DNA of 64,000 nucleotides from a virus. The stretch is from positions 1 through 64,000 of IMG/VR virus record IMGVR_UViG_3300014627_000002. One strand, 5' to 3'. Positions 1,397 to 57,869 of the stretch are shown here, one piece after another. The notes under the pieces are model-generated. The model was not told the origin of the DNA and searched no databases. It saw only the letters and a list, made by a program, of their open reading frames with translations. Position 1 is the stretch's first letter. Every line of letters begins with the position of its first letter. The position numbers were made by a program, and so were the translations under genes.

Positions 1397-1933
1397 ATGG
1401 CTAAAAAGTTTGTACTTGCTGAATTGTCAGATCAGCATGAGTTTCTTCTTAAAATCAAAGAAATCCTTTCCAAAGCAACACAGCAGATGGTTGCTTTTAT
1501 CGCCGTGGACAAAATGACAAAGAAATCTGGCGTTGCAGTCAAAACGACACATTTTACGTTTGAAGAAGGCCAAGTACTTAGTCTGGTTTTCCGTACCGAC
1601 GGCGATGTAATTCAAACCCGGCTTAATAACACCGTTATTCCACTTTCAAAAGTCATGGATTACGACAAAATGAGTGACTTTAATGCCGGGCTTGAGGATC
1701 TGGCACTCAAGCTCAAGGGAAATCAGGAAAAGTTCAATATTAAGCGCCAGTCGGCCCGCGTCATCATTCCACGGGCTAAAACGCCGTCACTTACAGTTAA
1801 AAAGCGTATTGAACTGACACGCCAGGCATTAGATGAAGCGGCGCAAATCATTGAGAAAAAGAAAGCCCTAATCTCTCAAAAAACTCAGGATCTTCAAGTT
1901 TTAAAGCAGAATGATATGGCAGGTGCGGCATGA
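1397..1933 (+). CDS. hypothetical late protein
   Basis: 178-aa ORF directly behind a late box, with a coiled-coil-like C-terminus. No motif recognised. Confidence 0.6.
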   Translation: MAKKFVLAELSDQHEFLLKIKEILSKATQQMVAFIAVDKMTKKSGVAVKTTHFTFEEGQVLSLVFRTDGDVIQTRLNNTVIPLSKVMDYDKMSDFNAGLEDLALKLKGNQEKFNIKRQSARVIIPRAKTPSLTVKKRIELTRQALDEAAQIIEKKKALISQKTQDLQVLKQNDMAGAA

Positions 1934-9265: not shown

Positions 9266-9310
9266 GGAATATCAAAAAAACTCATTATTTTAAAGCCGGA
9301 AAATAGAGCC
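9266..9310 (+). promoter_or_regulatory. late-operon box (copy 4)
   Basis: GGAATATCAAAAAAAC at 9266; AAAATAGAGCC at 9300 (+34). AGCCTA (9307-9312) / TAGGCT (9327-9332) plus T6 lies just before the ATG at 9339. Confidence 0.6.
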
Positions 9311-10904: not shown

Positions 10905-11609
10905 ATGGCATTTGATCTAAAGAATTTTAACGAGGTTAATATACTTGGCCAAGCAAAAGACAAGCTGGCCAAGACTGTTAATAAACAGAAAGATCGGCTG
11001 AGCCGAATTGCTCAGGAAAAGTTAGAAACGATTTCAACCCAGGCCATGAGAAAACAGCAATGGTTTGGGCACTCAGCTGAAGACTTCAAACAGCTCTATT
11101 TAGAAATTTATGGATTAGGCCAGCTGTTAAATGCCAATTATTTTGTAGAGTTTGAAGCCTATGAGGACAATGCTACTGCTAATTTACCCTTATTTGCTGA
11201 TGGATTAAGCGGGTACCTGGTCAGTCAGACCAATTTAAACCTACTTCAAGCTGAATTTGAACAGGTCAAAGTGGGGACCATGCAATCTAATCATTTTGTA
11301 GGGATAAGTGAACCTGATTTGCAATTAAGCCTGATTGAAACAGCAGATGCCCGCTTCATGAATACAATCATGGACTGGCGGGATCTTATGGTCAATCCAG
11401 ATGGCACAGCGAATGAACCGGCAAACTATGCCATGATCATAACAATTGGCATGTTTTCCCGTGATTTTGGCCTGCAATATAAGCCTTTTTCACGGCGTTT
11501 TATCGTTGGACCGTCACAGTCCAGCAAAGATGATTTAACCGGACAGGGAACCAGTGAAGTTGCAGAGGTGCCATTTACTTTAACGGTCCTTCGCAATTTC
11601 ATGGAATAA
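10905..11609 (+). CDS. hypothetical head-module protein
   Basis: 234-aa ORF 3 nt after the portal-like gene. Confidence 0.55.
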   Translation: MAFDLKNFNEVNILGQAKDKLAKTVNKQKDRLSRIAQEKLETISTQAMRKQQWFGHSAEDFKQLYLEIYGLGQLLNANYFVEFEAYEDNATANLPLFADGLSGYLVSQTNLNLLQAEFEQVKVGTMQSNHFVGISEPDLQLSLIETADARFMNTIMDWRDLMVNPDGTANEPANYAMIITIGMFSRDFGLQYKPFSRRFIVGPSQSSKDDLTGQGTSEVAEVPFTLTVLRNFME

Positions 11610-11647
11610 CAAAAAATACCGGCTTTTTAATGCGCCAGAATACTCAA
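11603..11647 (+). promoter_or_regulatory. late-operon box (copy 5)
   Basis: GGAATAACAAAAAATA overlaps the stop codon of the upstream gene; AGAATACTC at +34; ATG at 11673. Confidence 0.55.
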
Positions 11648-11672: not shown

Positions 11673-14600
11673 ATGTTAGAAAACACCCACTTTGTAATTG
11701 ACCATAAAACTGGTGACACAATAAAGCTCATGACACCAGATGGTGTGCTTCTTGACTCATGCGATGCCAATATTGGCCAGTTAAAAGGAGAGCATCGCCA
11801 ATTAAAAGCCATTCTATGTGATGGCGCTTTGCCTTCAGATCAGTGGCAAGTTATGAACGTGGTCAGCGATTCAGGTATGTTTCTGGACCATGTTGCTGTA
11901 AAAGGCGCCGTCAGTGCCGAACAAGCTGAACGTTTATGCACTAAATATCTGCTATCACATGGGACCACGGCCAAGCTTCAGCAGCCTGTATCATTATCAG
12001 ATAGCGGCTTAAAAATCTTTCTGGACAGCGCAACCACTCCAACCGGTACCGCCTATTTGTTAAAAACTGATGCGGCTATCTATGATTCTATGTCTACCTC
12101 AACTAAGGTCCAGTGGAGTGAAGATAATCATGTGCTATCTCATGATGGCCAGTTGTCTAATGTCATGTTCGACATGGCACGCTATGACGTAAACAAAGAA
12201 CTTCTTACCAAAGTTACCCCTCAAGACATTGCCGGCTTGCTGATTGATGATCAGTGTACGATGTTCATGTATGACGCAATGGTCCTGAAATATCGCCAGC
12301 TGGACACGGCCATGCAAAAAATTGCCGAAGCCCTAAAAGCGGCTGGCCATGAAGAATTTTTCGTAAAAAATGTCACACCAATTGAACCATTCAAGCGGCA
12401 AGGCGTGGTCAATGTCGGTGCTATTTTTGAAATGTCGGATACACAGACCGTTACAGTGCTCTTTAATAATCCTGATACAACACCAGCAAAGCTTACTGAC
12501 AGTGATGTGATTACGAGCTGGAAATGGATTTTAAATAAACGTGATGTAACTGCTGTATTGCAGCCACGGGCGGTAGATGCAAAGAAATATCCAATGATTG
12601 CAGGACGTATTTTCCAGCTTCTTGCAAAAAACCATAGCCGTTTTAAGCGAGCTCAGGCAATCCGGGCCAAAGATGAAGCGTTACTCAGTGAGTTAATGAC
12701 CCAGCTTGATGCAACACAGGTTGAGTCACTTACCCTGGATGAACAGCTGAAAAAGCTTAATCAGGAAATTGATCAGATTGGGATCGATAAACAAAAAAAT
12801 ACTGAAGTACTCAAATCTGATAATCCAGGTACTTCAAAAGGAGATCCTGAAAGTAATCCAGATGAAACAATCTATATTTTAAAAAGTTCTAATCCACGTG
12901 CACGGAAACCAGCAGGCAGCATCAAACTAAAAAATAAGAATGGCATATATGATGTGATGTTACAGGACGGCACCGTAGGCGGTGAGTTTATCGGGAATAT
13001 AACCGCCGTGAAAAACTGGCTAATAAGCCGTCTTGCTTCTTTAGGTGATGCGATTGGCGAAAGTGCATCATGGGAGAAAGTTGTAGCACGATTAGAGCTT
13101 AAAACTGGTAATGATGTACTTGATATTGCTGAACAGGCGCCAGAGCTAACAGGTGACGAGTTCGGTGAATTTGATATTGACTTGCCAGAAGATAAAAAAG
13201 CGCTGCGTGAAATAGTGAAGACAGCACTAAAAGAGATGGTGGGCCAGTCTTTCCCATGCCCTGCTTTAAATGCGAATGTTGAAATTCGTACTAATGGGGT
13301 TAAAAAACTAATCAGTATGAGTGGGGATGCGCGCAAACTACAAGCTGTAGCGGCATTAAAAGAGCTTCTGGCAATTGCATATAAGGTAGATGAAAGAAAA
13401 TCTTATGCTGAGCTCACGGAGCGAAATATTGTTGCCTATCACATTATGAGTGCGCCGTTAAAATTAGATCAAGAGTCTTTGAACGTGCTATTTGTGATTC
13501 GTGAGGATGACAAAGGCCACTATCACTATGATCATAAAATTGAAAAATCTGTAGTACAGAATGTAAAAAGCCCGCTATTAGACGGGCTTCTCACAGTAGC
13601 TTTTCCAACGGCGGGAGTGTCACAAGATGATCTTGCTGGACTGACCCACTTAGCAAGCTACCGGCGTAATGACAGTATAGAAAGTGATCATAATATTGTC
13701 AACACCATGTTCGATGATGCGAACGCTGATGATGCCGAAGTGCTCAATATGTTCATCATTGCCGAAGGTCAGGTTGCTGAACCGGAAGATGTGCCTGAAC
13801 CTGCACAGGTGCCAGAGGGCTTTAATCTGGTTAATCCTTCAGATGGTTACTGGCAGCTACGCCGTGAAGGGGTAAACCGCTTTGTAGTCATTATGGGGGA
13901 CAAGAACGGCTATCAGGCCCAAAGCCAGAGCGCGTCTTCAACCATTGTTAAAAGCTTGGATTCAGCAATTGCTTGGGGCGTTACCTTGTTAAACGACCTT
14001 CATCAAGACCTTATGGCCAAGAATGAGCAAGAACAGGATCTTATTAATAACTGGCGTGATCAAATTCCTGCAAATCTTGATAAAGAGCTATTTTTAAAGG
14101 CTTTTGATATGGTGAAGGACCATACCGTTAAACATGAATGGAACTGGAATGATGCCACGATCTTTAATTTCTTGGTTAAATCCTTCGAGCGTTTTGAACA
14201 GGCTCATGCATCTGTCGGTTTTTTCTTTCAGCTATCAAATGAAATTCTAAATAACGGGGTTAATGAGCTAAGCCGCAAGCTATACGCCTTATATACCAAT
14301 GGTGATGTGGTATTAGCTGGCCAAAGCCAAAAAGCAGGTAAAGAACGCATGCAGGAATATGCAAAAACCGTCTTTACTCAAGATCAGCTTGATCAGTATG
14401 AAGCGGATAAGATTCAAGCTGAAAAAGATGAAATCGAAGCAAAAAAAGCAGCTTTAGAACAGGAATTGCGGGAGTCAGTTAAAGTTATCTGGATGAGTAT
14501 ACCGGCAGGTGATCGGGGGATGATGCAAGGCTGGCTTAACAGTGGTTATGACATGGTTCGGGTGAAAAAGGGCGCAACCTATCGTTATCAATTTACCAAT

Positions 14601-14984
14601 CCAGACGGCAGCGCCTACCGGGTCCAAAATCATCCATCTTATAAAAAAGCTGAACAGGCCGCCAAAGCCGCCGATGCTACCTATGGTTCATTGCGTAAAG
14701 CCCTGACTGAATTAGGCATTATTGAGCTGCCTAAAGCTACTGAGCCAGTAAAAGACCCTATTGAAAAGGAAACTAATGCCAATACAGAAACTTCAAATCC
14801 AGAAAATGAAAGCCTGGCATTCCTTAATTCAGTTATTGCCGGTGAAGTCGATTTAAGTGCTGATTCAATTGGTGAACGTCTGGAAAGTATGGCTGAGAAT
14901 CTGGACCCATCCTTAGAACAATTATTTGAGCAAGCTGCTGATGCCTACGCTCAATTTGCAATTAAAAACGCTCAAAGCGTATAA
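11673..14984 (+). CDS. 1103-aa virion-associated 'polyvalent'-type protein, function unknown
   Basis: Huge ORF behind a late box, next to the portal. The segment NVEIRTNGVKKLISMSGDARK...NIVAYHIMSAPLKLDQESLNVLFVIREDDKGHYHYDH recalls domains seen in phage/conjugative polyvalent proteins (recollection, unverified). Confidence 0.45.
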   Translation: MLENTHFVIDHKTGDTIKLMTPDGVLLDSCDANIGQLKGEHRQLKAILCDGALPSDQWQVMNVVSDSGMFLDHVAVKGAVSAEQAERLCTKYLLSHGTTAKLQQPVSLSDSGLKIFLDSATTPTGTAYLLKTDAAIYDSMSTSTKVQWSEDNHVLSHDGQLSNVMFDMARYDVNKELLTKVTPQDIAGLLIDDQCTMFMYDAMVLKYRQLDTAMQKIAEALKAAGHEEFFVKNVTPIEPFKRQGVVNVGAIFEMSDTQTVTVLFNNPDTTPAKLTDSDVITSWKWILNKRDVTAVLQPRAVDAKKYPMIAGRIFQLLAKNHSRFKRAQAIRAKDEALLSELMTQLDATQVESLTLDEQLKKLNQEIDQIGIDKQKNTEVLKSDNPGTSKGDPESNPDETIYILKSSNPRARKPAGSIKLKNKNGIYDVMLQDGTVGGEFIGNITAVKNWLISRLASLGDAIGESASWEKVVARLELKTGNDVLDIAEQAPELTGDEFGEFDIDLPEDKKALREIVKTALKEMVGQSFPCPALNANVEIRTNGVKKLISMSGDARKLQAVAALKELLAIAYKVDERKSYAELTERNIVAYHIMSAPLKLDQESLNVLFVIREDDKGHYHYDHKIEKSVVQNVKSPLLDGLLTVAFPTAGVSQDDLAGLTHLASYRRNDSIESDHNIVNTMFDDANADDAEVLNMFIIAEGQVAEPEDVPEPAQVPEGFNLVNPSDGYWQLRREGVNRFVVIMGDKNGYQAQSQSASSTIVKSLDSAIAWGVTLLNDLHQDLMAKNEQEQDLINNWRDQIPANLDKELFLKAFDMVKDHTVKHEWNWNDATIFNFLVKSFERFEQAHASVGFFFQLSNEILNNGVNELSRKLYALYTNGDVVLAGQSQKAGKERMQEYAKTVFTQDQLDQYEADKIQAEKDEIEAKKAALEQELRESVKVIWMSIPAGDRGMMQGWLNSGYDMVRVKKGATYRYQFTNPDGSAYRVQNHPSYKKAEQAAKAADATYGSLRKALTELGIIELPKATEPVKDPIEKETNANTETSNPENESLAFLNSVIAGEVDLSADSIGERLESMAENLDPSLEQLFEQAADAYAQFAIKNAQSV

Positions 14985-14993
14985 GGTGACGTC

Positions 14994-16301
14994 ATGCTAA
15001 CAGCAGTACAAAAGATTAAATTATCGCGTGAGAGCGTTAGCTTGGTGGCTCAATTAGCTGAGCTAAAGGGCATGGCCAAGATTAAAGCAGCTCGCCGCTT
15101 AAATGAAATTACTGTATTGCTTGGGGGCGGCCAAAAGGCCGACCCATTAACCAAGCAAGGCGCTGATGAATTTCATGAAAATCTGAAAACGGCGATTGGT
15201 CAAGATTCAGGGGTGGACCTCACGCCATTTGAACGGATTGTTCAGAACAATGAAATCACGATTGAAACACTGACAGGTGCAGTGGCATCAACTAAAGCGC
15301 TATTAAATAGCGTAAGTACACCGCCTATTTTTTTGGAAGCTGTAAAAACGGTTACAGCCAAGCTAGAAACGGGTGAGCTCTATGACAGTTTAGGCCATGC
15401 CGCTGTTAGCTTGGCCAATGACATTAATAGCATTATTCAGATGCATGATGTGCTTGCTCAAACGGCCGCAACCAGTGAGTTAAATACAGGGGTAGAACCG
15501 ACTCAAGAGCAGCTGGAAGCAAATCAATATCAAGTCGCTCATATCAAGATTGCAGGCATGGATATAGCTATTGAAAATCCAGCCGGAAGTATCCGCCGTG
15601 GCGTAGATCAGGATGGCCATGCTTGGGAAACTACTATGTCAGCCCATTACGGATATTTTGAGAATACTATGGGTGCCGATGGGGATGAACTTGATGTGTT
15701 TGTCGTACCAGGTATAGATGCAGATTATGATGGCCGTGTATTTGTGGTCCATCAAATTGACAGTAAGGGCAATTTTGATGAGCACAAGATTATCTTGGGT
15801 GTAACATCAAAAGCTACAGCGCTGGCACTTTACCAGGCGCATTATGATGAACATTTTAATAGTGTCGGCAGTATTCATGAATATAGCCTTGAAGATTTTA
15901 AGGCCAAGCTTCAGCAGCCTACTGCACTATTTGACTCATTGCGGCCAATGTTGCTTGATTCATGGGTGAACGATGGCCGTTTTGACCTGTTGCCCATTAA
16001 AAAACTGGACCTGAATGGCCTAGATGATGGGGCTAAAGAGCCAAAGCCTTCAATTAAAGAGCCTATTGTAGTTTTACTGCACGGTAGCAAGTATCTGGTA
16101 ATTCATGGCCGAAAACGTATGGAACTGGCTTTTAAAAATTCTGAGTCATTTATCCCGGCTATTGTGTTTGCTCAAGATCAGGGTTACACCAGAGCTGACG
16201 TGCAAAAGGCGATGAAACAATGTGGCAATGTGGTGCATGCTGAAGCGCTGGCGGCATTGATTGAACATAATGCTGCCAAAAGACTAGAAGCCGCCATATA
16301 A
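14994..16301 (+). CDS. inorganic-pyrophosphatase-fold domain fused to ParB/Srx-like domain
   Basis: IAIENPAGSIRRG...HYGYFENTMGADGDELDVFVV...FVVHQIDSKGNFDEHKIILGV fits the family-I PPase core (DGDPLDV-type). The C-terminal LHGSKYLVIHGRKRMELAF fits the ParB N-domain DGxHR-type motif. Confidence 0.6.
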   Translation: MLTAVQKIKLSRESVSLVAQLAELKGMAKIKAARRLNEITVLLGGGQKADPLTKQGADEFHENLKTAIGQDSGVDLTPFERIVQNNEITIETLTGAVASTKALLNSVSTPPIFLEAVKTVTAKLETGELYDSLGHAAVSLANDINSIIQMHDVLAQTAATSELNTGVEPTQEQLEANQYQVAHIKIAGMDIAIENPAGSIRRGVDQDGHAWETTMSAHYGYFENTMGADGDELDVFVVPGIDADYDGRVFVVHQIDSKGNFDEHKIILGVTSKATALALYQAHYDEHFNSVGSIHEYSLEDFKAKLQQPTALFDSLRPMLLDSWVNDGRFDLLPIKKLDLNGLDDGAKEPKPSIKEPIVVLLHGSKYLVIHGRKRMELAFKNSESFIPAIVFAQDQGYTRADVQKAMKQCGNVVHAEALAALIEHNAAKRLEAAI

Positions 16302-16305
16302 ACAT

Positions 16306-16332
16306 AAAGCCCGCGAAATGCGGGCTTTTTTA
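16306..16332. terminator. bidirectional rho-independent terminator
   Basis: AAAGCCCGC-gaaat-GCGGGCTTTTTT between convergent genes. Confidence 0.8.
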
Positions 16333-16346
16333 TAACTAAAAACTAC

Positions 16347-16661
16347 TCATGCTGGGCGGGTTATAAGATTGTAAGTAGAAAGGTAACTCATATTGGTGTA
16401 CCCGTTTTTGATGAACATATCTTCATGCTTATCGATGAAATACTGTCTTGCCTGAAGGCGTTTTAGCTCGATACTAATATGATTGCGGCTAGATTGTCTT
16501 AACTGCTCATCTTGTAATTTTGTCTGCAGGTCTTTGATCAGGTTTTTATGATGAGCTCTTATTTTCTCAATAAATGCTTCTCTACTTTCTGGTGTATTAG
16601 AACAAACGAGATCCAAGATTACCTCATTGCAGATCGTAAAAAATAGTTTTACCTGGTTCAT
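16347..16661 (-). CDS. hypothetical protein, reverse-oriented
   Basis: 104-aa ORF divergent from the giant gene, with a TGAACA array in its upstream region. Confidence 0.5.
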   Translation of the reverse strand: MNQVKLFFTICNEVILDLVCSNTPESREAFIEKIRAHHKNLIKDLQTKLQDEQLRQSSRNHISIELKRLQARQYFIDKHEDMFIKNGYTNMSYLSTYNLITRPA

Positions 16662-16700
16662 TTTATTTTCCTGTTATGTCATGCCAATAAATATACAAGC

Positions 16701-16736
16701 AAATGAACAAATGAACAATAGAACAAATGAACATTT
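16701..16736. promoter_or_regulatory. TGAACA-repeat array (class A, locus 1)
   Basis: AAATGAACAAATGAACAATAGAACAAATGAACATTT in the divergent intergenic region. Confidence 0.6.
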
Positions 16737-16749
16737 ATAAAAAAGTTTA

Positions 16750-16794
16750 GGAATATGGAAAAAACTGGAAATTTCTACTTCATAAAATGGGGGT
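16750..16794 (+). promoter_or_regulatory. late-operon box (copy 6)
   Basis: GGAATATGGAAAAAAC at 16750; AAAATGGGGG at +34 (16784); ATG at 16821. Confidence 0.55.
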
Positions 16795-16820
16795 GGTTCA
16801 ACCATAAAACAGAGTAGGCT

Positions 16821-19800
16821 ATGCCATTCAACAATACTGCCCGTGCGGGTTTGCAAGTTTTTTCAGATGCTTTATCAGCACTGAAAAACAAAGTTTCCCC
16901 ATCTCATGCACCAACTGGTGTATATGAATTTCAAGATGAGAAAATTACGCCAACCAAGCGCCAGAAGGCAAACAATGCGGCCGTAAGTCTGTTACGGCAA
17001 TTACAGAATGAATCGGGGTTAAAGGCGACAGCTGAACAGAAGGTCACTTTATCGCGGTACACCGGTAAAGGGGGAAATTTAGAAGTAGAAGGGGTAAAGG
17101 GGAGCCAATATGAATACTACACACCGGTCCCTTTAGCTAATGCACTGTGGGACCTCTTAAAAGAACATGGCTTTGACGGCGGCGCCGTACTCGATCCTTG
17201 CGCGGGGACTGGTATTTTTGCAGCTGGCCGACCTGAATCAGTGGTGATGCAGTCCGTAGAGCTTAATGATGTTTCTGGCGGTATTAATGCGTTGGTAAAT
17301 GACCAGGCAAATCACAATGTCATTGTAAGCCCTTTTGAGAAAATCGCTTCTCAGACGCAAGACAATGTTTATGATGCTGTTATTACTAATGTGCCGTTCG
17401 GTTCACGTGGAGATCGGGGCGATAATGCCCGCCATGATATTTATTCAGATGATGATTTAGACTCATACTTTGTTAAACGGTCAATTGACAAATTAAAGCA
17501 CGGTAAACTGGCCGTATTTATTGCTCACCCAAAATTACTTACGGGTGCCGGTCATAAGAAGTTCCGTCAATATATTTCTCTACGTGCTGAACTGGTGGGA
17601 GCATACCGCCTGCCTAACAAGGTATTCCAAGCTACAGGCGCAGATGTAGTAACTGATGTTCTGGTATTTCGCAAACATACTGAAGAACTGACACAGAAAA
17701 TTGAAAACCTATATGACAATGGTTCACTTCAAGTACTTCAAGATTCCCGCATTCTGGATGCCGATATAATTGACGGTCGATATTACAAGGCTGAAGGTCA
17801 AAAAAACGTACTTGGCCAAAGTACGATAGTCAAACATGCAAAATTTAAAACAGATGTAGAAGCTGTTTTAAGTGATGAAAGCCTGCCGAATATCTTAAAA
17901 CTGATTCGCCGTTTTCCAGACAGCCGTATTAATTATGGGATGCTGGAATTAACAGAAATGAAGCCAGTTTTACCGATACAAGAAGGTGATATTCGTGTCA
18001 TCGGCGGCACTACATTTGAATATCAGGATGGTAAATGGATTAGCACAGGCCAGACAGCCACTTATAGTAATGCTGAAAGCTTTAGTAAGGCCCTCACAGC
18101 TTTTATGTCAGGCATGACTTATGTTGATCTGATGGCTTATCAGAGTCATTGTGTGGCATCACATTACAAGTTATCTGCATGGGCTGGCCAGTTAATTGAT
18201 GTAGTACAAAGCACAGGTGTAGAAACTTATGCACACTGGCTGGTCCAGTTTGCACTGTATGAAGCTTTACAGGCCGAAGCCTATAACAGCTATGCTCAGA
18301 ACTATCCTAAGCTTACAAGTGCTTTAAAGGGCATCGCGGGGCAAGTTGGTAAAAAACCATATAAACATGCTTCAGTTAAGACCCTGGTAACGTTTAACAG
18401 TAAGGCTTTCGATAAAAATTCAGCTGATGGCCTGTCAGCCTATTGGTATGGCAGCACTATTGAAATTGCACAGGCACTAGATGCCAAAGGCGCTTATGAA
18501 AATGCAATTTATATGGGTCGTGCTAAAGACTTTATGGTATCCGTTGATGAAATCCGGCAGACCGATCCTAATTTTGACCCATTGGCTAATGAAGATTATG
18601 CAATTTCAGGGGACGGTCAGTATGTCACGTTAAATCGGGACTATTACACGGGCAATCACGGCGAATTTTTACAGCAGATTGATGCACAGATTGAAGCCGC
18701 AACAGATCCTAAAATACGTGCAAAACTGGTCCAGCAACGTAAAAAATCATTTGAGCATGTTGATTATGTCGATGTGGCCAATATTAATTTAGGTTTACGT
18801 GCTACCAACATTGATATACAGGTCAAAAGTGATTTTCTAAGCCTGTATGGTGGGGATGCAGTGACAGTCGATGAAGACGGTCGCATTCGCTTAAAAGACA
18901 AGCAAGAGCCATTAGATCGCATTATCCGCATTATGAAGCGGGACGGGGTGCAAGGTGCTCAACATCGTTGGGTTCAAACGTTCTTCTTAAACCGTATCTT
19001 GGATTCAGTTAATAACAATGTCCGCCTAACATTGAAGGCGAATAAGGATGAAGTATCTAAGCAGGATCATGACCTGGTATTTAAGGCTTTTTTAGAATAT
19101 GCAAATGAGCTAGATGCAACCTTTAGTGCTTATCTAAAAGCCAATATCGGGTTTATGGAAGACCTAGATGCAAAAGTAAATGACCCAATGCATAAAGAAA
19201 TGCAGAGTGAGCTAGATACTTCACCAGTAGAGGTCAAAGGCTTTGCACCTAAGTTTGCAACATTTAAAGCGATGCAGACTTATCAAAATGCAGAAGTACG
19301 CCGTTTAAGTCGCCGTTTTGAAGGAATTACCGGCTTTGATGTAGGTTTGGGTAAGACACTCACTTCAATTGCAGCTGCACAAAACCTGCATAATATTGGC
19401 GTTAAAAAGCGTACCTTGTTTGTGGTTCCATCACATACGATTTCTAAATGGTATCGTGATATGCAAATGTCGTTAGATGATTACAGTGATGTATTAGTCA
19501 TCGGCTTAAAGGGCAATACACTAAGTTCGGTCAATAGTAGCCATTACGGTGCTGACTTAAACCTATTGCTTAGTGAACCCTATCGCAAGATCCTGATTAC
19601 TAGTGATGCTTTCACTATGATTCCGCTACGTGACCGCACCATTGAAAAATATTATGAAAGTAAAAAGGCAAAAATCGATTTTTCAAAAGATAAAGACCGA
19701 GAAAAATGGAACGCATTTATTGGCAAGAAAAAAGAACCACTTCAAAAAGATGTAGGCCGCCTACCATTTTTTGAGGACCTGAATATTGATAGCATCATTT

Positions 19801-22800
19801 TTGATGAAGCGCAGATGTTTAAAAATGGCGATGCCAGTGAAGGTTTTGGAAATTTCCAGTCTATTAAGGGCCTTTCATTATTAGCAGAAGCACAGTTATC
19901 GGACCGGGCAATTTCGGCCAAAATCAAGTCTGAATATGTTCGGGGTACTAACCCGCTTAAAGATGGTGTTGTATTGCTAAGTGCTACACCTGTAACCAAT
20001 AGCCCGTCAGAAATTCTAACCATGCTGTCACTGGCCATAGGTGAGAAGAAAGCTAAAAATATGCTCGGTGGGGCTGCCATTGATTCTGTAGATGACTTTT
20101 TAAGTACTTTTGCTCATACCGAGTCAATTAGTGGGGTGGACCTGCTGGGTGCCGAACGTGCAGATGAAACCTTTACCGGATTTAAGAATGTCGAATTGCT
20201 TAAAAACGTTTTGCATAGTGTTGGAAACATTCAGACAGCGCGGGAAAATGATTTAAAAATTCCGGCTCAAGAAGATGTTAAAACAAATGTCAGTTTAGGT
20301 AGTGAAGACCGCCAGACGCTTGCTGATCTGAAACGTGCATACAACATTGCCCGTCAAATGGGTAAAGGTGGGCCAGTCCTGGCAGATGAAGACGATATTA
20401 AGTTTTTGCATGAAATGATGGGGAAACTTGGCGAATCTGAAACTTTGATCGGGCATCCATTTAACCTGATTACCAAAATGCAAGATTTGATCTTGATGGG
20501 AAGTGAGTCAGTACTTTCCCGAGCGATGTATGTCAATTACCTGCCTGAAGATCAAGAAAAGGCTCAAAAGGTTATTGATGACTTTAACAAAAAGCCAGTG
20601 AAGGTAACGTCTACTCGATCCTTTCCATTGGTTGATAAAGCAGATGTAAAAATCAAAAAACGGGGAAAAACCATAGGTGATGCAGATGAACTTGAGATTA
20701 CCGTTCGTGCTTTCCTTGATGAAGAAAATAACCGCATTGGCTTGACTGCAAACGATACAAAGGCAATTGCAGGACTAATGACCCTGGCAGATAAGGCTAA
20801 ATTAGCCCTTAAACCTAAGCTGTCATCTAAAATGCAGGCACTTATTGATAATGTAAAAACAGAAATGGCTACGCCTAAACATAATGGTCACGCCAAGCAA
20901 ATTATTTTCTGTGACACATTGGCCATGCATCACATTATCAAGCAGGCTTTGATTGAATACTGCGGAGTAGAAAAGTCCCGTATTGCAATTTTAAATGCTG
21001 CAATCAAGCCAGATGGCAGTAACGGCGCTGTTAAAAGTGAAGATGTTCAGGATATTCAGGACGGCTTTGCTACTGATAAATACACCATTGTCATTGCTAA
21101 TAAGAAAGCTGATACCGGTATTGATCTGCAAAAAGGCACCCAGGCTATTCACCATTTAACAACCGGCTGGACACCTGATAGCTTGCAACAGCGTAATGGC
21201 CGTGGTGTACGTCAAGGTAATGAGCAAGAGCGCGTTAATGTGTATATGTATTCAGCAAATGGCTCATTTGATGAATATAAATTGCATGTGATTAATGGTA
21301 AATCAGACTGGATTAATCAGTTAATGAATAAGGGAGCTACCGTATCTGGCACGCTGCAGGTATCTAGTGAGCTTACAGATGATGATTATGACCTGATGAT
21401 TCAGGCAGACAGTGCCGAAGCCATTGAAGGGCTTTTAAAACAGCGTCAGGAACGCGAGAATCAAGCACGTCATGACCGGGCAGTTAAACATACTGATCTG
21501 TTAATCAAAATTGCAAAAAAAGCAGCGTCACAGGCAGACCGTACAGAGTCTAGTGTTGCTCAGGAAATCATTATTAAGGATTACGAAAAGTACATCACTT
21601 TAATGCGCCGTGATGCTAAGGCAGAGGACGCGGCTGAACGTAACCAGATCCTAGAGCAAAAGCAGGCCATTGTAAGTCAGTATGATAGTTATCTGAAAAA
21701 TAACAGTGTTGAAAATTGGGATAGGGGTTTAAAGCGCAAGGCAGAGGAAAAAGGCCAGGCATCACTTTGGTTGTCTTCATTACATCATTCTGGTTTTGAA
21801 GTCGCTGCAACAGAGTTCAGTAAATTAGATGAGCAAGTTTTAAATTCTGATACCTCACTTTCAAGCCGTGCAAAAGCTAGTTTTCAGTCATTAAAACGTA
21901 TGGCAGACAGTACACGTGAACAGCTTTTAAAATATGCAGACAGTCCATTTACTGATGAAGAACGGGCCATGTTACTTGATGGTACCGCCGTTCTTGATGA
22001 GAACCAGCAAATCTTAAAGCATGGTGATCTTTTAAAGGCAGAAGGAAGTAACGGCGCTATATACGGTATGCGTGTTATTGCTGAATCTCAAGACTACTAT
22101 ACTTTCACTGAAAGCTTTGTCCGTAATAGACAACCAATTGAACCGCATGAGCGTGATGCAGCAATTCAAAGCTTTATTGCTTATGAAACACAGTTGCTAA
22201 AAAAGAATGAGGTGTTCAGTTACGGTAGTTTAAATAGCGAAACATTAAACTCAAATAAACGCTTTAGCCGGGTTTATCCAGAGATCCAGACAGCAGTTGA
22301 AGAACAGTTGAAGGCAGAGCATGATAACTGGATTCACCAGAGTAGCGTATACAACAGTCCAGGACTCCAATTGAAGTCCAACCATGCTCTACACTGGCCA
22401 GAAATTACCTTTCCTCAATTCTTTAAAAATAACTTGCAGCTGGCGACTGTTTTTAATGCGCCATTTTCAGGAATCATTGAAAGTATTGAACTCGGTGATG
22501 CAATTGCTCGAGTCAAAATTCCTAACACTAAAGCGGACTTGGTGCAGCGTAAATATCCGATGAATCTAACTCGCTTGGCTGAGCAAATTTTTTCAGTAGC
22601 TGAAACAGAAAAAATTGCGGTAGATTTACAACATGCTGAATCTATTATCAATAATGAATTTATGTATTACTTTGCAGAGAAAGTAGATAAAGCTTTATCT
22701 GCATACTATAAGGGAAGTTTAAAGCTGCTTTATCCGCATCATACAGTCTTGACTGATGACCAAAAGGTAGAGATTGCAGAATATATTTTAGAACATGCTT

Positions 22801-23174
22801 TAAATGGCTTAGTAAGTTCTTATACACATCTAATGGAATGGGTACAGGAAAAGTCTGCATTTAAAGGAATTCTAAAGCTATATGCATTAGATGATAATGA
22901 CCCCGAAGTTATTGTAAAACAGCATGTAAAACTACACGGCGGCATGGGTAAATTTAAGAATATTAAAATTACTGGTGTAGCTTTCTTGGGTACCGGCAGT
23001 TTTGGAGCAGCTTTCAAGTCAACCTATAAAGATGATATGAAGGCGTATGCTGACTCGATCCGTAAGCGTTGTGCTTGGGACAACCGCAATACCCGTTGGG
23101 TAGTTGAACCTGAAGTCATGGTATGGATGATGAAACAGGACTGGTTTAATATGAATGAAGTAGAATTTTACTAA
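16821..23174 (+). CDS. 2117-aa DNA methyltransferase - SF2 (SNF2-like) helicase fusion, P1 DarB-like
   Basis: MTase motif I LDPCAGTGIFAAG (~17190) and motif IV ITNVPFG (~17382). Helicase motifs: GFDVGLGKTL (~19335), IIFDEAQ (~19795), LLSATPVTN, QQRNGRGVRQG (~21185). A late box lies upstream. Confidence 0.75.
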   Translation: MPFNNTARAGLQVFSDALSALKNKVSPSHAPTGVYEFQDEKITPTKRQKANNAAVSLLRQLQNESGLKATAEQKVTLSRYTGKGGNLEVEGVKGSQYEYYTPVPLANALWDLLKEHGFDGGAVLDPCAGTGIFAAGRPESVVMQSVELNDVSGGINALVNDQANHNVIVSPFEKIASQTQDNVYDAVITNVPFGSRGDRGDNARHDIYSDDDLDSYFVKRSIDKLKHGKLAVFIAHPKLLTGAGHKKFRQYISLRAELVGAYRLPNKVFQATGADVVTDVLVFRKHTEELTQKIENLYDNGSLQVLQDSRILDADIIDGRYYKAEGQKNVLGQSTIVKHAKFKTDVEAVLSDESLPNILKLIRRFPDSRINYGMLELTEMKPVLPIQEGDIRVIGGTTFEYQDGKWISTGQTATYSNAESFSKALTAFMSGMTYVDLMAYQSHCVASHYKLSAWAGQLIDVVQSTGVETYAHWLVQFALYEALQAEAYNSYAQNYPKLTSALKGIAGQVGKKPYKHASVKTLVTFNSKAFDKNSADGLSAYWYGSTIEIAQALDAKGAYENAIYMGRAKDFMVSVDEIRQTDPNFDPLANEDYAISGDGQYVTLNRDYYTGNHGEFLQQIDAQIEAATDPKIRAKLVQQRKKSFEHVDYVDVANINLGLRATNIDIQVKSDFLSLYGGDAVTVDEDGRIRLKDKQEPLDRIIRIMKRDGVQGAQHRWVQTFFLNRILDSVNNNVRLTLKANKDEVSKQDHDLVFKAFLEYANELDATFSAYLKANIGFMEDLDAKVNDPMHKEMQSELDTSPVEVKGFAPKFATFKAMQTYQNAEVRRLSRRFEGITGFDVGLGKTLTSIAAAQNLHNIGVKKRTLFVVPSHTISKWYRDMQMSLDDYSDVLVIGLKGNTLSSVNSSHYGADLNLLLSEPYRKILITSDAFTMIPLRDRTIEKYYESKKAKIDFSKDKDREKWNAFIGKKKEPLQKDVGRLPFFEDLNIDSIIFDEAQMFKNGDASEGFGNFQSIKGLSLLAEAQLSDRAISAKIKSEYVRGTNPLKDGVVLLSATPVTNSPSEILTMLSLAIGEKKAKNMLGGAAIDSVDDFLSTFAHTESISGVDLLGAERADETFTGFKNVELLKNVLHSVGNIQTARENDLKIPAQEDVKTNVSLGSEDRQTLADLKRAYNIARQMGKGGPVLADEDDIKFLHEMMGKLGESETLIGHPFNLITKMQDLILMGSESVLSRAMYVNYLPEDQEKAQKVIDDFNKKPVKVTSTRSFPLVDKADVKIKKRGKTIGDADELEITVRAFLDEENNRIGLTANDTKAIAGLMTLADKAKLALKPKLSSKMQALIDNVKTEMATPKHNGHAKQIIFCDTLAMHHIIKQALIEYCGVEKSRIAILNAAIKPDGSNGAVKSEDVQDIQDGFATDKYTIVIANKKADTGIDLQKGTQAIHHLTTGWTPDSLQQRNGRGVRQGNEQERVNVYMYSANGSFDEYKLHVINGKSDWINQLMNKGATVSGTLQVSSELTDDDYDLMIQADSAEAIEGLLKQRQERENQARHDRAVKHTDLLIKIAKKAASQADRTESSVAQEIIIKDYEKYITLMRRDAKAEDAAERNQILEQKQAIVSQYDSYLKNNSVENWDRGLKRKAEEKGQASLWLSSLHHSGFEVAATEFSKLDEQVLNSDTSLSSRAKASFQSLKRMADSTREQLLKYADSPFTDEERAMLLDGTAVLDENQQILKHGDLLKAEGSNGAIYGMRVIAESQDYYTFTESFVRNRQPIEPHERDAAIQSFIAYETQLLKKNEVFSYGSLNSETLNSNKRFSRVYPEIQTAVEEQLKAEHDNWIHQSSVYNSPGLQLKSNHALHWPEITFPQFFKNNLQLATVFNAPFSGIIESIELGDAIARVKIPNTKADLVQRKYPMNLTRLAEQIFSVAETEKIAVDLQHAESIINNEFMYYFAEKVDKALSAYYKGSLKLLYPHHTVLTDDQKVEIAEYILEHALNGLVSSYTHLMEWVQEKSAFKGILKLYALDDNDPEVIVKQHVKLHGGMGKFKNIKITGVAFLGTGSFGAAFKSTYKDDMKAYADSIRKRCAWDNRNTRWVVEPEVMVWMMKQDWFNMNEVEFY

Positions 23175-23186
23175 GGCGGTACTACA

Positions 23187-23627
23187 ATGATTAATAAATT
23201 TTTGCCAGATATTGAAGGCTTAAAAGATATAACCGCTAATGTGCGTAGCACGCTGGCCAGCCGTGGTATTACTGATGAGATCAGCACGGTAGTTGCAAAT
23301 ATGCAAAAAAATGCAGAGTTGCAGGCAGTAAAGGGAATAGATACCTGGTTAAGCTACGGTGTTTATTTGCCTGCTGTTGAGCGTGTGATTGCACTTAATT
23401 CGGGTGAGTCTGAAGAAGATTTCTTTGCACGTACGCAATATCCCGTCAATGTAGTGGAAGCCTATACAGTAAAAGAAGATAGTCTGGCGACTTTAATAGC
23501 CGCTGATCAATACAGTCAGCTACATAAAAGTACTATGCCAAAAAATACCGCAGTATGGTGCCTAGATGAAGATGGACAGCACTATATTAACTTGCTTGAA
23601 TATGAAAACCGTATGAAAGCAATCTAA
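23187..23627 (+). CDS. hypothetical protein
   Basis: 146-aa ORF 12 nt after the giant gene, followed by a terminator. Confidence 0.6.
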   Translation: MINKFLPDIEGLKDITANVRSTLASRGITDEISTVVANMQKNAELQAVKGIDTWLSYGVYLPAVERVIALNSGESEEDFFARTQYPVNVVEAYTVKEDSLATLIAADQYSQLHKSTMPKNTAVWCLDEDGQHYINLLEYENRMKAI

Positions 23628-23638
23628 TATTAATCTCA

Positions 23639-23668
23639 GGAAAGCCCGTATAACACGGGTCTTCTTTT
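23639..23668 (+). terminator. rho-independent terminator
   Basis: GAAAGCCCGT-ataa-CACGGGTCTTCTTTT. Confidence 0.65.
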
Positions 23669-23670
23669 AG

Positions 23671-23695
23671 GTTTAAATGAACAAATGAACAAATA
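23671..23695. promoter_or_regulatory. TGAACA-repeat array (class A, locus 2)
   Basis: GTTTAAATGAACAAATGAACAAATA immediately after the terminator. Confidence 0.55.
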
Positions 23696-23814: not shown

Positions 23815-23859
23815 GGAATAGTAAATTTCTGGCTTTTTTTAATATGTTTAAATGTTCAA
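23815..23859 (+). promoter_or_regulatory. late-operon box, weak copy
   Basis: GGAATAGTAAATTT lacks the A-run; TAAATGTT at +34; ATG at 23887. Confidence 0.3.
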
Positions 23860-42937: not shown

Positions 42938-42996
42938 ATTGTTCATTTAAATAATCTATGTTTAAATGAACAAATGTTCAAATGAACAAATAAACA
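42938..42996. promoter_or_regulatory. TGAACA-repeat array (class A, locus 6)
   Basis: TTGTTCATTTAAA-N9-TTTAAATGAACAA (42939-42973), then ATGTTCAAATGAACAAATAAACA. Confidence 0.6.
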
Positions 42997-57829: not shown

Positions 57830-57869
57830 CATGTTTAAATGAACAAATAAACAAATGAACAATAAAATC
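57830..57869. promoter_or_regulatory. TGAACA-repeat array (class A, locus 7)
   Basis: CATGTTTAAATGAACAAATAAACAAATGAACAATAAAATC. Confidence 0.55.

What the first reader, a model, noticed from the sequence alone, without database searches (positions are those of the whole stretch)
11673..23174. Late-expressed block of giant proteins next to the portal: a Dar-like / polyvalent-protein counter-defence cargo
**Contents.** Three large ORFs occupy 11.5 kb directly after the portal module: a 1103-aa protein, a 435-aa PPase-ParB fusion and a 2117-aa MTase-helicase. The first and last each carry their own late-operon box (11603 and 16750), so they appear co-regulated with virion genes.

**Motifs in the 2117-aa protein.** It combines an N6-adenine-type MTase (LDPCAGTG, NVPFG) with a complete SF2 helicase motif set (GLGKT, DEAQ, SAT, QxxGRxxR).

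**Interpretation.** This is the domain combination known for phage P1 DarB. DarB is packaged in the capsid, injected with the DNA and protects it from type I restriction in cis. The same combination appears in the multi-domain polyvalent proteins described for phages and conjugative elements. About 1200 residues of the giant protein, and essentially all of the 1103-aa protein, carry no motif I can recognise. The actual activities and targets are open.
Basis: partly seen in the sequence, partly recalled or inferred. Interest (0 to 1): 0.8.

Follow-up and report, generated by a model that had tools for sequence, protein, structure and literature searches.

The report
Dar-type anti-restriction head-protein locus
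This block is the distant counterpart, in an Acinetobacter-type relative of phage P1, of P1's Dar system, whose proteins are packed in the phage head and injected with the DNA to blunt host restriction; it is a diverged, domain-shuffled member of a known kind, not a new kind of system.

Summary
The three ORFs sit at the stated coordinates, every quoted motif is present, and profile searches confirm the MTase and SF2/SNF2 helicase.

The Dar / polyvalent-protein interpretation is supported and can be made sharper:
- **1103-aa protein.** Far from motif-free, it is a DarA relative (Pfam DarA_N, LPD3). The only significant PDB matches of its AlphaFold model are P1 DarA in the P1 head cryo-EM maps.
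- **435-aa protein.** It has a weakly DdrA-like N-terminus, a polyvalent-type InPase and a C-terminal ParB/sulfiredoxin-fold domain.
- **2117-aa protein.** It is a DarB homologue (36% identity to P1 DarB over the first ~400 residues, same motif I and NVPFG).

The system reaches beyond the stated range, with a probable Ulx at 23187-23627 and an Hdf homologue at 1397-1933.

A recurrent box (GGAATANNRAAAAA) lies about 70 nt upstream of ten genes, including portal, tail, hdf-like, darA-like and darB. That makes co-regulation with virion genes plausible, but the timing is untested.

In Acinetobacter relatives the first two proteins keep conserved ends and swap their middle modules. DarB and Ulx are present in some relatives and absent in others.

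Packaging, injection and anti-restriction activity are inferred by homology. Verdict: new member of a known kind, moderate interest.

The parts
1397..1933 (+). Hdf-like protein (178 aa), the partner of DarA in P1. It has its own GGAATAACAAAAAA box at 1330-1343.
   Evidence: phrog_1620 'Hdf-like antirestriction', E 1.2e-32. blastp to P1 Hdf gives E 4e-7 against all window ORFs and 2.5e-9 pairwise. Pfam DarA_N is weak, E 2.4e-4, below cut-off. Box.
9339..10901 (+). Portal protein (context). It has the same box at 9266-9279.
   Evidence: phrog_1497, E 5e-164. blastp to P1 Prt, E 1.5e-30. Box.
11603..11616 (+). Recurrent promoter-like box, 70 nt upstream of the darA-like ATG.
11673..14984 (+). DarA-related polyvalent head protein (1103 aa).
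   Evidence: Pfam DarA_N and LPD3. PDB sequence hit to P1 DarA, 9ukm_I, E 1.8e-11. AF2 model with mean pLDDT 72.5. The only significant Foldseek PDB hits are P1 DarA, 9vz0_I at E 2e-6 and 9ukm_I at E 2e-5. The BFVD top hit is 'Internal head protein', E 5.6e-14.
11673..12242 (+). N-terminal beta-rich plus helical domain (aa 1-190) of the DarA-related protein. P1 DarA has no counterpart. It is conserved in all 102 retrieved homologues.
   Evidence: pLDDT about 85-94. Coverage profile. P1 DarA_N starts at aa 66 and here at aa 198.
12264..12632 (+). DarA_N domain (aa 198-320), followed by a long helix (aa 306-377). This is the putative capsid-binding core.
   Evidence: PF18788, E 5.8e-28. Conserved D256 and N288-K-R290, the 'NX+' motif of Iyer et al.. 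Aligned to P1 DarA residues 129-234.
13188..13529 (+). LPD3 domain (aa 506-619), inside module B (aa ~486-700). About 40 homologues carry this module, at different positions.
   Evidence: PF18798, E 2.8e-18. Module mapping. pLDDT about 85-95.
13800..14792 (+). Module C (aa 710-1040). Function and fold class are unknown. Only about 14-17 homologues carry it.
   Evidence: No Pfam hit. The profile against PDB gives only a doubtful penicillin-acylase hit, E 0.0025. No significant Foldseek PDB match.
14805..14981 (+). Conserved helical tail (aa 1045-1103) at the extreme C-terminus, found in nearly all homologues whatever their length (607-1854 aa).
   Evidence: pLDDT 85-90.
14994..16301 (+). 435-aa protein with three parts: a DdrA-like N-terminus, an InPase domain and a ParB/Srx-fold domain. 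It starts 10 nt after the darA-like stop and has no box of its own.
14994..15179 (+). N-terminal ~50-60 aa with a weak likeness to the DdrA N-terminus. The first ~45 aa are conserved in the second-gene proteins of L006 and L008-L010, which carry a long insert; L001 and L005 conserve the whole N-terminal ~165 aa; L011 shows no N-terminal match.
   Evidence: phrog_1855 'DdrA-like', E 8.9e-5, aa 1-62. hhalign of aa 2-49 against P1 DdrA 3-50 gives E 0.004 and probability 8%. Pairwise blastp finds nothing. Synteny.
15507..15911 (+). Polyvalent-type inorganic-pyrophosphatase (InPase) domain, aa 172-306. The acidic motifs GADGDELD (aa 227) and DEHK (aa 262) are invariant in the family.
   Evidence: PF18823, E 6.6e-46. 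Invariant columns. Positions.
15975..16298 (+). ParB/sulfiredoxin-fold domain (aa ~328-435) with an invariant G-x-x-R-x-x-x-A box (HGRKR at aa 371). It is not a Pfam ddrB-ParB member.
   Evidence: Negative hhalign against a ddrB-ParB alignment.
16306..16328 (.). GC-rich hairpin with T-runs on both sides. It is the likely terminator of the darA-like/InPase unit and of the convergent 104-aa ORF.
   Evidence: One search lists it on the - strand. On the + strand the sequence GCCCGCGAAATGCGGGCTTTTTT is read directly.
16750..16763 (+). The same box, 71 nt upstream of the darB ATG. It is conserved before darB in plasmid NZ_CP032280.
16821..23174 (+). DarB homologue (2117 aa): an N6-adenine MTase plus an SNF2-type SF2 helicase plus a lineage-specific C-terminus.
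   Evidence: phrog_11801, 1718 bits. blastp to P1 DarB, E 6e-64 and 5e-62. tblastn. Alignment.
17106..17717 (+). MTase domain (aa 96-299), with motif I LDPCAGTG and motif IV NVPFG, as in P1 DarB.
   Evidence: PF02384, E 4.4e-12..
19278..21218 (+). SF2/SNF2 helicase core (aa 820-1466) carrying GLGKT, DEAQ, SAT and QRNGRGVR.
   Evidence: PF00176, E 8.5e-10, and PF00271, E 7.4e-6. Positions.
21741..23171 (+). DarB C-terminal region (aa 1641-2117). It is narrowly distributed and of unknown function.
   Evidence: Only 5 relatives at E<=1e-3 among 1.84 billion representatives. 41% identity in L001 and L005, against 61-69% for the rest of DarB. No similarity to the P1 DarB C-terminus by hhalign. No Pfam hit.
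23187..23627 (+). Probable Ulx homologue (146 aa), 13 nt after the darB stop. A hairpin follows at 23644-23660.
   Evidence: phrog_1629 'Ulx-like', E 5.8e-4. Pairwise blastp to P1 Ulx, E 0.003. hhalign, E 0.0012 and probability 20%. Same length (146 aa) and same position as P1 ulx. It co-occurs with darB in relatives. Hairpin.

Best explanation
The block is the Dar (defence against restriction) module of a phage-plasmid that is distantly related to P1 and carries a Rep3-type initiator. Its closest relatives are Acinetobacter plasmids and contigs.

**Proposed mechanism, by homology with P1.**
1. The DarA-related protein and the Hdf-like protein bind the inner face of the capsid. They nucleate the loading of the other Dar proteins.
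2. The DdrA-like/InPase/ParB-fold protein and DarB, the latter helped by Ulx, are packed into the head.
3. All are ejected with the DNA and act early on or near the incoming genome, blunting host restriction before phage genes are expressed.

**Transcription.** Two units are each headed by the box that also precedes the morphogenetic operons:
- box 11603, darA-like, the 435-aa gene, hairpin at 16306
- box 16750, darB, ulx, hairpin at 23644

**Shown here.**
- Homology to P1 DarA by sequence, profile and fold.
- Homology to P1 DarB by sequence and profile.
- The Hdf homologue.
- Intact catalytic motifs in the MTase, helicase and InPase domains.
- The ParB/Srx fold of the 435-aa C-terminus.
- The shared upstream box.
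- Conserved synteny next to the portal gene.
- Modular exchange of the middle domains between conserved ends.

**Inferred.** Packaging, co-ejection, late timing, and the target (type I R-M or something else).
For: **DarB**
- Domain and family matches.
- Direct comparison with P1 DarB.
- 36% identity over the first ~400 aa, with shared YYTP, AGTG and NVPFG motifs.

**DarA**
- Pfam domains.
- Sequence match to solved P1 DarA, 9ukm_I at E 1.8e-11.
- AF2 model.
- The only significant PDB fold hits are P1 DarA.
- BFVD hits are internal head and polyvalent proteins.

**Other components**
- Hdf.
- Ulx.
- InPase.
- ParB/Srx fold.

**Regulation and context**
- The box is shared with the portal, tail-tube-like, PmgG-like, Pro-like and hdf-like genes. 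It is conserved before darB in a relative.
- The order portal, 234-aa gene, darA-like, second protein, with or without darB-ulx, is kept in seven Acinetobacter loci.

**P1 literature**
- Six Dar proteins are found in the virion, and the N-terminal 30 aa of DarB are a capsid-targeting signal: PMC9024508.
- 55 DarA-Hdf pairs sit on the inner capsid surface and are lost on DNA ejection: PMC12810830.
- DarA-N, InPase, LPD3 and the MTase-helicase dyad are polyvalent-protein domains predicted to be delivered with the DNA: PMC5512222.
Against: - No experiment exists for this element.
- Similarity to P1 is distant. Of the 58 P1 proteins compared, only 8 find a blastp match in the window at E<=1e-3: BplA, Tub, PmgM, Prt, Pro, Hdf, DarA and DarB.
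- No Lpa homologue is seen in the 64 kb, so 'late' rests on the box alone.
- The NCBIfam DarA equivalog model scores 46 bits against a cut-off of 350. The protein shares the DarA core but is not an equivalog.
- No DdrB or ddrB-ParB homologue was found.
- The DdrA and Ulx assignments are weak (E 1e-3 to 1e-5).
- DarB and Ulx are missing from several otherwise syntenic relatives, so that half of the system is dispensable.
- How DarB acts is unknown even in P1.
Confidence: 0.72

Rival explanations
1. The locus is mainly a capsid-morphogenesis and early-life-cycle module. DarA-like and Hdf-like would act as head-size or stability factors. The enzymatic domains (InPase, ParB-fold, MTase-helicase) would support early replication or transcription, for example by clearing pyrophosphate, and would not counter host defences.
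For: In P1, DarA and Hdf determine head size and stabilise the capsid (PMC12810830; PMC9024508). Iyer et al. offer PPi clearance as one reading of InPase. The locus sits between portal and baseplate genes and shares their box.
Against: The same P1 proteins are genetically required for protection from type I restriction. DarB and Ulx are dispensable across relatives, as accessory counter-defence genes usually are. The middle modules turn over rapidly, which is typical of conflict genes.
Confidence: 0.15
2. The 2117-aa MTase-helicase is a defence or self-modification enzyme, of the DISARM DrmD/DrmMI, BREX or type ISP R-M kind. It would be expressed from the resident phage-plasmid to protect the lysogen and would not be an injected counter-defence protein.
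For: Partial matches to DrmD, BrxH and DpdE helicase lobes and to type I/II MTase models (NCBIfam; PADLOC). The best solved-structure sequence hit is a type I R-M methyltransferase subunit, E 5e-4.
Against: The scores are far below family thresholds: DrmD 51.5 bits against a cut-off of 610, and 57 bits in PADLOC. The DarB PHROG scores 1718 bits. No nuclease domain and no partner defence genes are adjacent. The gene has the virion-operon box and an Ulx-like gene downstream. Homology with P1 DarB includes the N-terminal region.
Confidence: 0.05
3. These are polyvalent proteins of a conjugative element, delivered through a type IV secretion system and not through a phage head.
For: [quoted passage not shown] Many tblastn hits to the 2117-aa protein lie on conjugative plasmids.
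Against: The window encodes portal, baseplate, tail-tube-like and PmgG-like proteins, and none of the proteins scanned here matched a relaxase or T4SS family. [quoted passage not shown]
Confidence: 0.02

Closest known systems
Phage P1 Dar system (Hdf, DarA, DdrA, DdrB, DarB, Ulx)
   Same: Homologues of Hdf, the DarA core and DarB are present, with a probable Ulx directly after darB. darB lies close to the portal gene, as in P1. The MTase motifs I and IV are identical in type to those of P1 DarB. The DarA core matches the solved P1 DarA by fold.
   Different: - All components except hdf are gathered in one co-directional block after the portal. In P1, darB-ulx and hdf-darA-ddrA-ddrB are separate operons.
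- The DarA relative is 1103 aa against 639 aa. It has an extra 190-aa N-terminal domain, LPD3, an unknown 330-aa module and a clade-specific tail. It has no Pfam DarA_C.
- DdrA and DdrB are replaced by one 435-aa protein (DdrA-like N-terminus, InPase, ParB/Srx fold).
- The DarB C-terminal ~480 aa are unrelated to those of P1 DarB.
- Overall protein identity is only about 25-36%.
Polyvalent proteins of phages (Iyer, Burroughs, Anand, de Souza & Aravind 2017, PMC5512222)
   Same: The domain vocabulary is the same: DarA-N, LPD3, InPase, a ParB-superfamily domain and the MTase-SF2 helicase dyad. The locus lies beside packaging and head genes. Domains are shuffled between relatives.
   Different: The domains are spread over three medium-to-large proteins; no single polypeptide carries them all. 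No processing metallopeptidase domain was detected in Pfam scans. The ParB-fold domain is not the catalogued ddrB-ParB family.
ddrB-ParB ... InPase proteins of A. baumannii prophages and Vibrio P1-like plasmids (e.g. P0071, 704 aa; P0097, 614 aa)
   Same: The InPase domain is related (39-45% identity), and a ParB-superfamily domain sits in the same polypeptide.
   Different: The order is reversed. In those proteins ParB is N-terminal and InPase C-terminal; here InPase comes first and the ParB fold is C-terminal. The two ParB-type domains show no profile similarity to each other.
Phage T4 internal proteins (IPI*, IPII, IPIII; Alt)
   Same: The concept is shared: head-packaged proteins ejected with the DNA to disarm host restriction. 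In both T4 IPIII and P1 DarB, capsid targeting uses a short N-terminal signal.
   Different: No sequence or fold relationship was found. The T4 proteins are small inhibitors or ADP-ribosyltransferases, not MTase-helicases.

Membership tests
P1-type Dar system | Head protein with a DarA_N core that binds the inner capsid surface | tested here: met
   PF18788, E 5.8e-28. PDB 9ukm_I by sequence, E 1.8e-11. Foldseek 9vz0_I at E 2e-6 and 9ukm_I at E 2e-5, the only significant PDB hits. Capsid binding itself was not tested.
P1-type Dar system | Hdf partner protein | tested here: met
   Window 1397-1933: phrog_1620, E 1.2e-32; blastp to P1 Hdf, E 4e-7.
P1-type Dar system | DarB: an N6-adenine MTase fused to an SF2 helicase in a protein of ~2000 aa or more | tested here: met
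P1-type Dar system | Ulx encoded directly downstream of darB | tested here: inconclusive
   A 146-aa ORF lies 13 nt after darB and has the same length as P1 Ulx. The scores are weak: PHROG E 5.8e-4, blastp E 0.003, hhalign E 0.0012 with probability 20%.
P1-type Dar system | DdrA | tested here: inconclusive
   Only the N-terminal ~50 aa of the 435-aa protein resemble DdrA: phrog_1855 E 8.9e-5 and hhalign E 0.004 with probability 8%. blastp finds nothing.
P1-type Dar system | DdrB (ddrB-ParB domain protein) | tested here: not met
   No blastp hit in the window. No PF18763 hit, even at E<=10. hhalign of the C-terminal domain against a ddrB-ParB alignment gives probability 0.4%.
P1-type Dar system | Proteins packaged in the virion, ejected with the DNA, and protecting it in cis from type I restriction | not testable with these tools
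   This needs virion proteomics and plating assays.
NCBIfam NF052326 anti_RE_DarA (equivalog) | Full-length score at or above 350 bits | tested here: not met
   46 bits, with only aa 247-363 matched.
Phage-type polyvalent proteins (Iyer et al. 2017) | Two or more catalogued effector or LPD domains in one polypeptide, encoded beside virion or packaging genes | tested here: met
   DarA_N plus LPD3; InPase plus a ParB fold; MTase plus helicase. The locus is adjacent to the portal. BFVD hits are to LPD3 and PolyVal proteins.
Phage-type polyvalent proteins (Iyer et al. 2017) | Processing metallopeptidase domain. This is frequent in the family but not obligatory. | tested here: not met
   No peptidase family appears in the Pfam scans.
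ParB/sulfiredoxin superfamily (C-terminus of the 435-aa protein) | ParB/Srx fold with a GxxR nucleotide-binding box | tested here: met
   Profile against PDB: the top 8 hits are ParB/Noc/Spo0J, E 0.012-0.14. Foldseek: the top 50 are all ParB/Srx members, best E 1.5e-3 with probability ~1. G67, R70 and A74 are invariant. The E-values are modest.
DISARM DrmD and BREX helicases | Family-level score and partner genes | tested here: not met
   DrmD scores 51.5 bits against a cut-off of 610. PADLOC gives partial hits of at most 57 bits. No partner genes are nearby.

The most novel reading that the evidence does not exclude
The two proteins after the portal may work as a cargo-swapping delivery chassis.

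**The pattern.** A conserved capsid-anchoring N-terminus frames interchangeable effector modules:
- In the DarA-related protein this is the DarA_N core, paired with a conserved ~55-aa C-terminal tail.
- In the second protein it is a conserved ~45-aa N-terminal leader.

**Candidate new effectors.** Several pieces have confident or conserved structure but no known relative:
- the aa 1-190 domain of the 1103-aa protein
- module C (aa 710-1040) of the same protein
- the DarB C-terminus (aa 1641-2117)

These could be new anti-defence effectors aimed at systems other than type I R-M. For example, the InPase and ParB/Srx pair might destroy nucleotide-derived immune signals or their precursors.
Probability: 0.25. 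Interest if true: 0.65.

Novelty: new member of a known kind. Interest (0 to 1): 0.38.

Why it matters
Dar is one of the few known systems in which a phage pre-loads its capsid with enzymes to defeat host immunity, and how it works is still unknown even in P1.

A diverged Acinetobacter version offers natural comparative material for working out which parts load cargo and which parts act on the host:
- It keeps DarA, Hdf, DarB and probably Ulx.
- It replaces DdrA and DdrB with an InPase/ParB-fold protein.
- It swaps the middle modules between conserved ends.

It is also relevant to engineering Acinetobacter phages that can overcome restriction barriers.

It does not reveal a new principle. The domains and the concept were catalogued in 2017, and NCBI already names some relatives 'DarA-related'.

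Tried and rejected
1. **Nucleotide similarity.** Megablast of the 11.5 kb against the phage and plasmid collections found nothing. The element has no close sequenced relative there; only protein-level matches exist.
2. **Is the ParB-like domain the catalogued ddrB-ParB?** Rejected. Pfam is negative, blastp to the P1 DdrB N-terminus finds nothing, and hhalign gives probability 0.4%.
3. **Module C of the 1103-aa protein.** There is no Pfam hit. The PDB profile gives only a doubtful penicillin-acylase match. There is no significant fold match. It remains unassigned.
4. **Is the C-terminal tail of the 1103-aa protein homologous to the P1 DarA C-terminus or penton-binding region?**
   - phmmer second domain: i-Evalue 74.
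   - hhalign: probability 0.6%.
   - blastp: E 5.4.
   - None of these supports the link.
5. **DarB C-terminus.**
   - The word-index search gave 2 hits.
   - The exhaustive HMMER search gave 5.
   - hhalign finds no similarity to the P1 DarB C-terminus.
   - One weak hit (E 5e-4) is to a PsbP/DcrB-repeat protein. This is only a lead.
6. **Lpa (late activator) homologue.** The blastp of 48 further P1 proteins (Lpa among them) against the window ORFs returned only BplA, Tub and PmgM; the 10 add Prt, Pro, Hdf, DarA and DarB, and there is no Lpa.
7. **Genome-collection scan.** The first scan, with the single 435-aa protein, found nothing. The second, with an alignment, gave 10 loci.
8. **Defence-system reading of DarB.** Rejected on scores.

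Full report
**1. Observation**

They follow a portal gene at 9339-10901 (phrog_1497, E 5e-164) and a 234-aa ORF.

Every motif quoted for the giant protein is present:
- LDPCAGTG at aa 124
- NVPFG at aa 190
- GLGKT at aa 842
- DEAQ at aa 995
- SAT at aa 1054
- QRNGRGVR at aa 1457

Pfam confirms N6_Mtase (E 4e-12), SNF2-rel_dom (E 8.5e-10) and Helicase_C (E 7e-6).

The 'late-operon box' is a real recurrent element.
- GGAATANNRAAAAA has 11 exact copies, all on the + strand. With one mismatch allowed there are 16 matches against 2.3 expected, and none of 100 shuffles reaches that.
- Ten copies lie 67-83 nt upstream of a start codon. An AAAATA-like element follows about 20 nt downstream of the box.
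- The genes served are a tail-tube-like gene (6762), the portal (9339), a PmgG-like gene (24216), a 701-aa ORF with weak tail-lysozyme matches (50290), a Pro-like gene (63141), two ORFs of unknown function (773, 56862), the hdf-like gene (1397), the darA-like gene (11673) and darB (16821).
- The box is also found 74 nt before the darB orthologue of plasmid NZ_CP032280.
- Co-regulation with virion genes is therefore a reasonable inference. 'Late' timing itself is untested, and no homologue of the P1 late activator Lpa was found by blastp.

**2. What the element is**

The window is part of a 76,032-bp contig, DALYXN010000016.1, of NCBI assembly GCA_031982845.1. It encodes a Rep3-type initiator (29280-30203) and an ISL3 transposase (4750-6108, - strand). 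It also encodes myovirus morphogenetic proteins that fall in the same PHROG families as P1 proteins, including baseplate, tail tube, portal and PmgG-like.

There is no nucleotide-level relative in the phage or plasmid collections. At protein level the nearest relatives of the giant protein are on Acinetobacter plasmids: NZ_CP032280 at 58.7% identity and NZ_CP029389 at 52.7%, both full length. Related loci found by the 435-aa family are mostly from Acinetobacter species.

Similarity to P1 itself is distant. Of the 58 P1 proteins compared, only 8 find a blastp match at E<=1e-3: BplA, Tub, PmgM, Prt, Pro, Hdf, DarA and DarB.

**3. The 2117-aa protein is a DarB homologue**

- It scores 1718 bits against phrog_11801 over aa 18-1638 and also matches the 'DarB-like antirestriction' PHROG.
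- blastp to P1 DarB gives E 6e-64 and 5e-62.
- The first ~400 residues are 36% identical to P1 DarB, with the YYTP motif, motif I (AGTG) and the unusual motif IV NVPFG all shared.
- Matches to defence-system helicases (DrmD, BrxH, DpdE) are partial and far below threshold: 51.5 bits against a cut-off of 610, and at most 57 bits in PADLOC.

The last ~480 residues (aa 1641-2117) behave differently.
- There is no Pfam hit.
- Only five relatives reach E<=1e-3 among 1.84 billion representatives.
- Identity to the two Acinetobacter orthologues is 41%, against 61-69% for the rest of the protein.
- There is no profile similarity to the C-terminus of P1 DarB.

**4. The 1103-aa protein is a DarA relative with extra modules**

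- Pfam finds DarA_N (aa 198-320, E 6e-28) and LPD3 (aa 506-619, E 3e-18).
- The best solved-structure match by sequence is P1 DarA, 9ukm_I, at E 1.8e-11.
- An AlphaFold2 model built on 77 homologues has mean pLDDT 72.5. The confident blocks are 1-190, 200-377, 490-630 and 1043-1102, with 715-1020 moderate.
- The model finds only two significant PDB matches, both P1 DarA in the P1 head cryo-EM maps: 9vz0_I at E 2e-6, and 9ukm_I at E 2e-5 with 310 alignment columns against a 303-residue target.
- In BFVD the top hit is an 'Internal head protein' (E 5.6e-14), followed by LPD3 and PolyVal proteins.
- The conserved Asp and the N-x-basic motif described for DarA-N are present: D256 and N288-K-R290.
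- It is not an equivalog of P1 DarA. NCBIfam gives 46 bits against a cut-off of 350.

Comparison with 102 homologues of 607-1854 aa shows a modular build:

| Module | Residues | Distribution among homologues |
|---|---|---|
| A (includes DarA_N) | 1 to ~480 | all |
| B (LPD3) | ~486-700 | about 40, at different positions |
| C | 710-1040 | about 14-17 |
| Helical tail | 1045-1103 | nearly all, at the extreme C-terminus |

Module C has no Pfam, PDB-sequence or PDB-fold relative. Other family members carry DarA_C, ddrB-ParB, InPase or PF18796 in place of these modules.

**5. The 435-aa protein**

- **InPase.** PF18823 matches aa 172-306 at E 7e-46. The acidic motifs GADGDELD and DEHK are invariant across the family.
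- **C-terminal domain.** Pfam does not recognise the last 125 residues, and they are unrelated to ddrB-ParB by hhalign.
  - A profile of 18 homologues places only ParB/Noc/Spo0J N-domains at the top of the PDB list (E 0.012-0.14), aligned on the GxxR box.
  - A model with mean pLDDT 81 has 50 of its top 50 Foldseek PDB matches in the ParB/Srx superfamily (Noc, ParB, SbnI, PadC, KorB, SerK, sulfiredoxin). The best E is 1.5e-3 and the probability is about 1.
  - I accept 'PPase-ParB fusion' in the sense of a ParB/Srx fold.
- **N-terminus.** The first ~50 residues weakly resemble P1 DdrA: phrog_1855 at E 9e-5, and hhalign of aa 2-49 against DdrA 3-50 at E 0.004 with probability 8%. The first ~45 residues are conserved in the second-gene proteins of L006 and L008-L010, which carry a long insert; L001 and L005 conserve the whole N-terminal ~165 aa; L011 shows no N-terminal match.
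- **Related architectures.** In Vibrio P1-like plasmids and A. baumannii prophages, InPase is combined with a true ddrB-ParB domain in the opposite order.

**6. Other Dar components and the shape of the locus**

An Hdf homologue lies at 1397-1933 (phrog_1620, E 1e-32; blastp to P1 Hdf, E 4e-7) and has its own box.

A 146-aa ORF lies 13 nt after darB. It has the same length and position as P1 ulx. It gives weak but consistent matches (PHROG E 6e-4, blastp E 0.003, hhalign E 0.0012).

No DdrB homologue exists in the window.

The block is two transcription units:
- box 11603, darA-like, the 435-aa gene (10-nt gap, no box), hairpin at 16306-16328
- box 16750, darB, ulx-like, hairpin at 23644-23660

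Between the two units sits a 104-aa minus-strand ORF with no family match. It is absent from relatives.

Across seven Acinetobacter loci the order portal, 222-234-aa gene, darA-like, second protein is conserved. darB and ulx are present together in L001, L005 and the window, and absent together in L006 and L008-L011.

**7. Mechanism**

[quoted passage not shown] Fifty-five DarA-Hdf pairs line the inner capsid at penton-hexon junctions, contact DNA, and are gone after complete DNA ejection. Loss of DarA or Hdf removes all other Dar proteins. The system protects against type I R-M (PMC12810830).

By homology, I propose the following sequence here:
1. The DarA-related and Hdf-like proteins form the capsid-bound platform.
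2. The 435-aa protein and DarB, the latter with Ulx, are loaded.
3. All leave with the DNA.
4. They act at the earliest stage of infection.

This work shows the homologies, folds, intact catalytic motifs, shared box and synteny. Packaging, ejection, timing and target are inferred.

The conserved-ends, variable-middle pattern suggests that the ends carry the assembly or loading information and the middles are exchangeable effectors. That is a hypothesis.

**8. Comparison, novelty and verdict**

The closest known system is the P1 Dar system, and the closest concept is the phage-type polyvalent protein of Iyer et al. 2017. This locus differs from P1 in four ways:
- It is consolidated in one place.
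- The DarA relative is enlarged.
- DdrA and DdrB are replaced by an InPase/ParB-fold protein.
- DarB has an unrelated C-terminus.

None of these goes beyond the known principle, and NCBI already labels some relatives 'defense against restriction DarA-related protein'. I rate it a new member of a known kind, with interest 0.38. The residual interest lies in the unassigned modules and in what the InPase/ParB pair acts on.

Noticed in passing
window 16347-16661 (- strand): A 104-aa ORF lies between the two Dar transcription units and is convergent with the darA-like/InPase unit. It has no match in Pfam, PHROGs, NCBIfam or PADLOC. It has a good sigma70-like promoter (TTGGCA-16-TAAAAT, 16687-16660). 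It is absent from the same gap in relatives L001 and L005, so it looks like a lineage-specific insertion of unknown function.
   Followed up: partly
window 16700-16733, 23675-23691, 42964-42995 and 57837-57861; weaker copies at 23858, 31989 and 40172: Clusters of an 8-bp tandem unit (AAATGAAC) occur only on the + strand and in intergenic regions. The 10-mer CAAATGAACA occurs 6 times against 0.44 expected. One cluster lies just upstream of the darB box and one just downstream of ulx, so the two flank the dispensable darB-ulx module. They may be dispersed operator sites, as with the C1 operators of P1. They are not conserved at the same places in relatives.
   Followed up: partly
window 4750-6108 (- strand), with the ORF at 6113-6601: An ISL3-family transposase (DDE_Tnp_ISL3, E 2e-57) is inserted between a 207-aa ORF that follows the baseplate gene and the tail-tube gene, on the opposite strand to the virion genes. 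It may interrupt the tail operon.
   Followed up: no
window 10905-11609: The 234-aa gene directly after the portal sits where P1 has the pro protease gene. It gives weak tail-tube matches instead (phrog_1842, E 4e-5; blastp to P1 Tub, E 3e-4). The Pro-like gene lies at 63141 to the end of the window.
   Followed up: no
L006 7544-10891 (Acinetobacter sp. ANC 3813); L008, L009 and L010: In these relatives the second gene is expanded to about 1000-1100 aa. The ~45-aa N-terminal leader and the InPase-ParB C-terminus are kept, and a large unexamined insert lies between them. These same elements lack darB and ulx.
   Followed up: partly
window 22716-22940 (DarB aa 1966-2040): The exhaustive search gave one weak hit (E 4.8e-4) to a 983-aa protein made of PsbP/DcrB repeats. 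This hints at a PsbP/Mog1-like fold in the DarB C-terminus. It is unconfirmed.
   Followed up: partly
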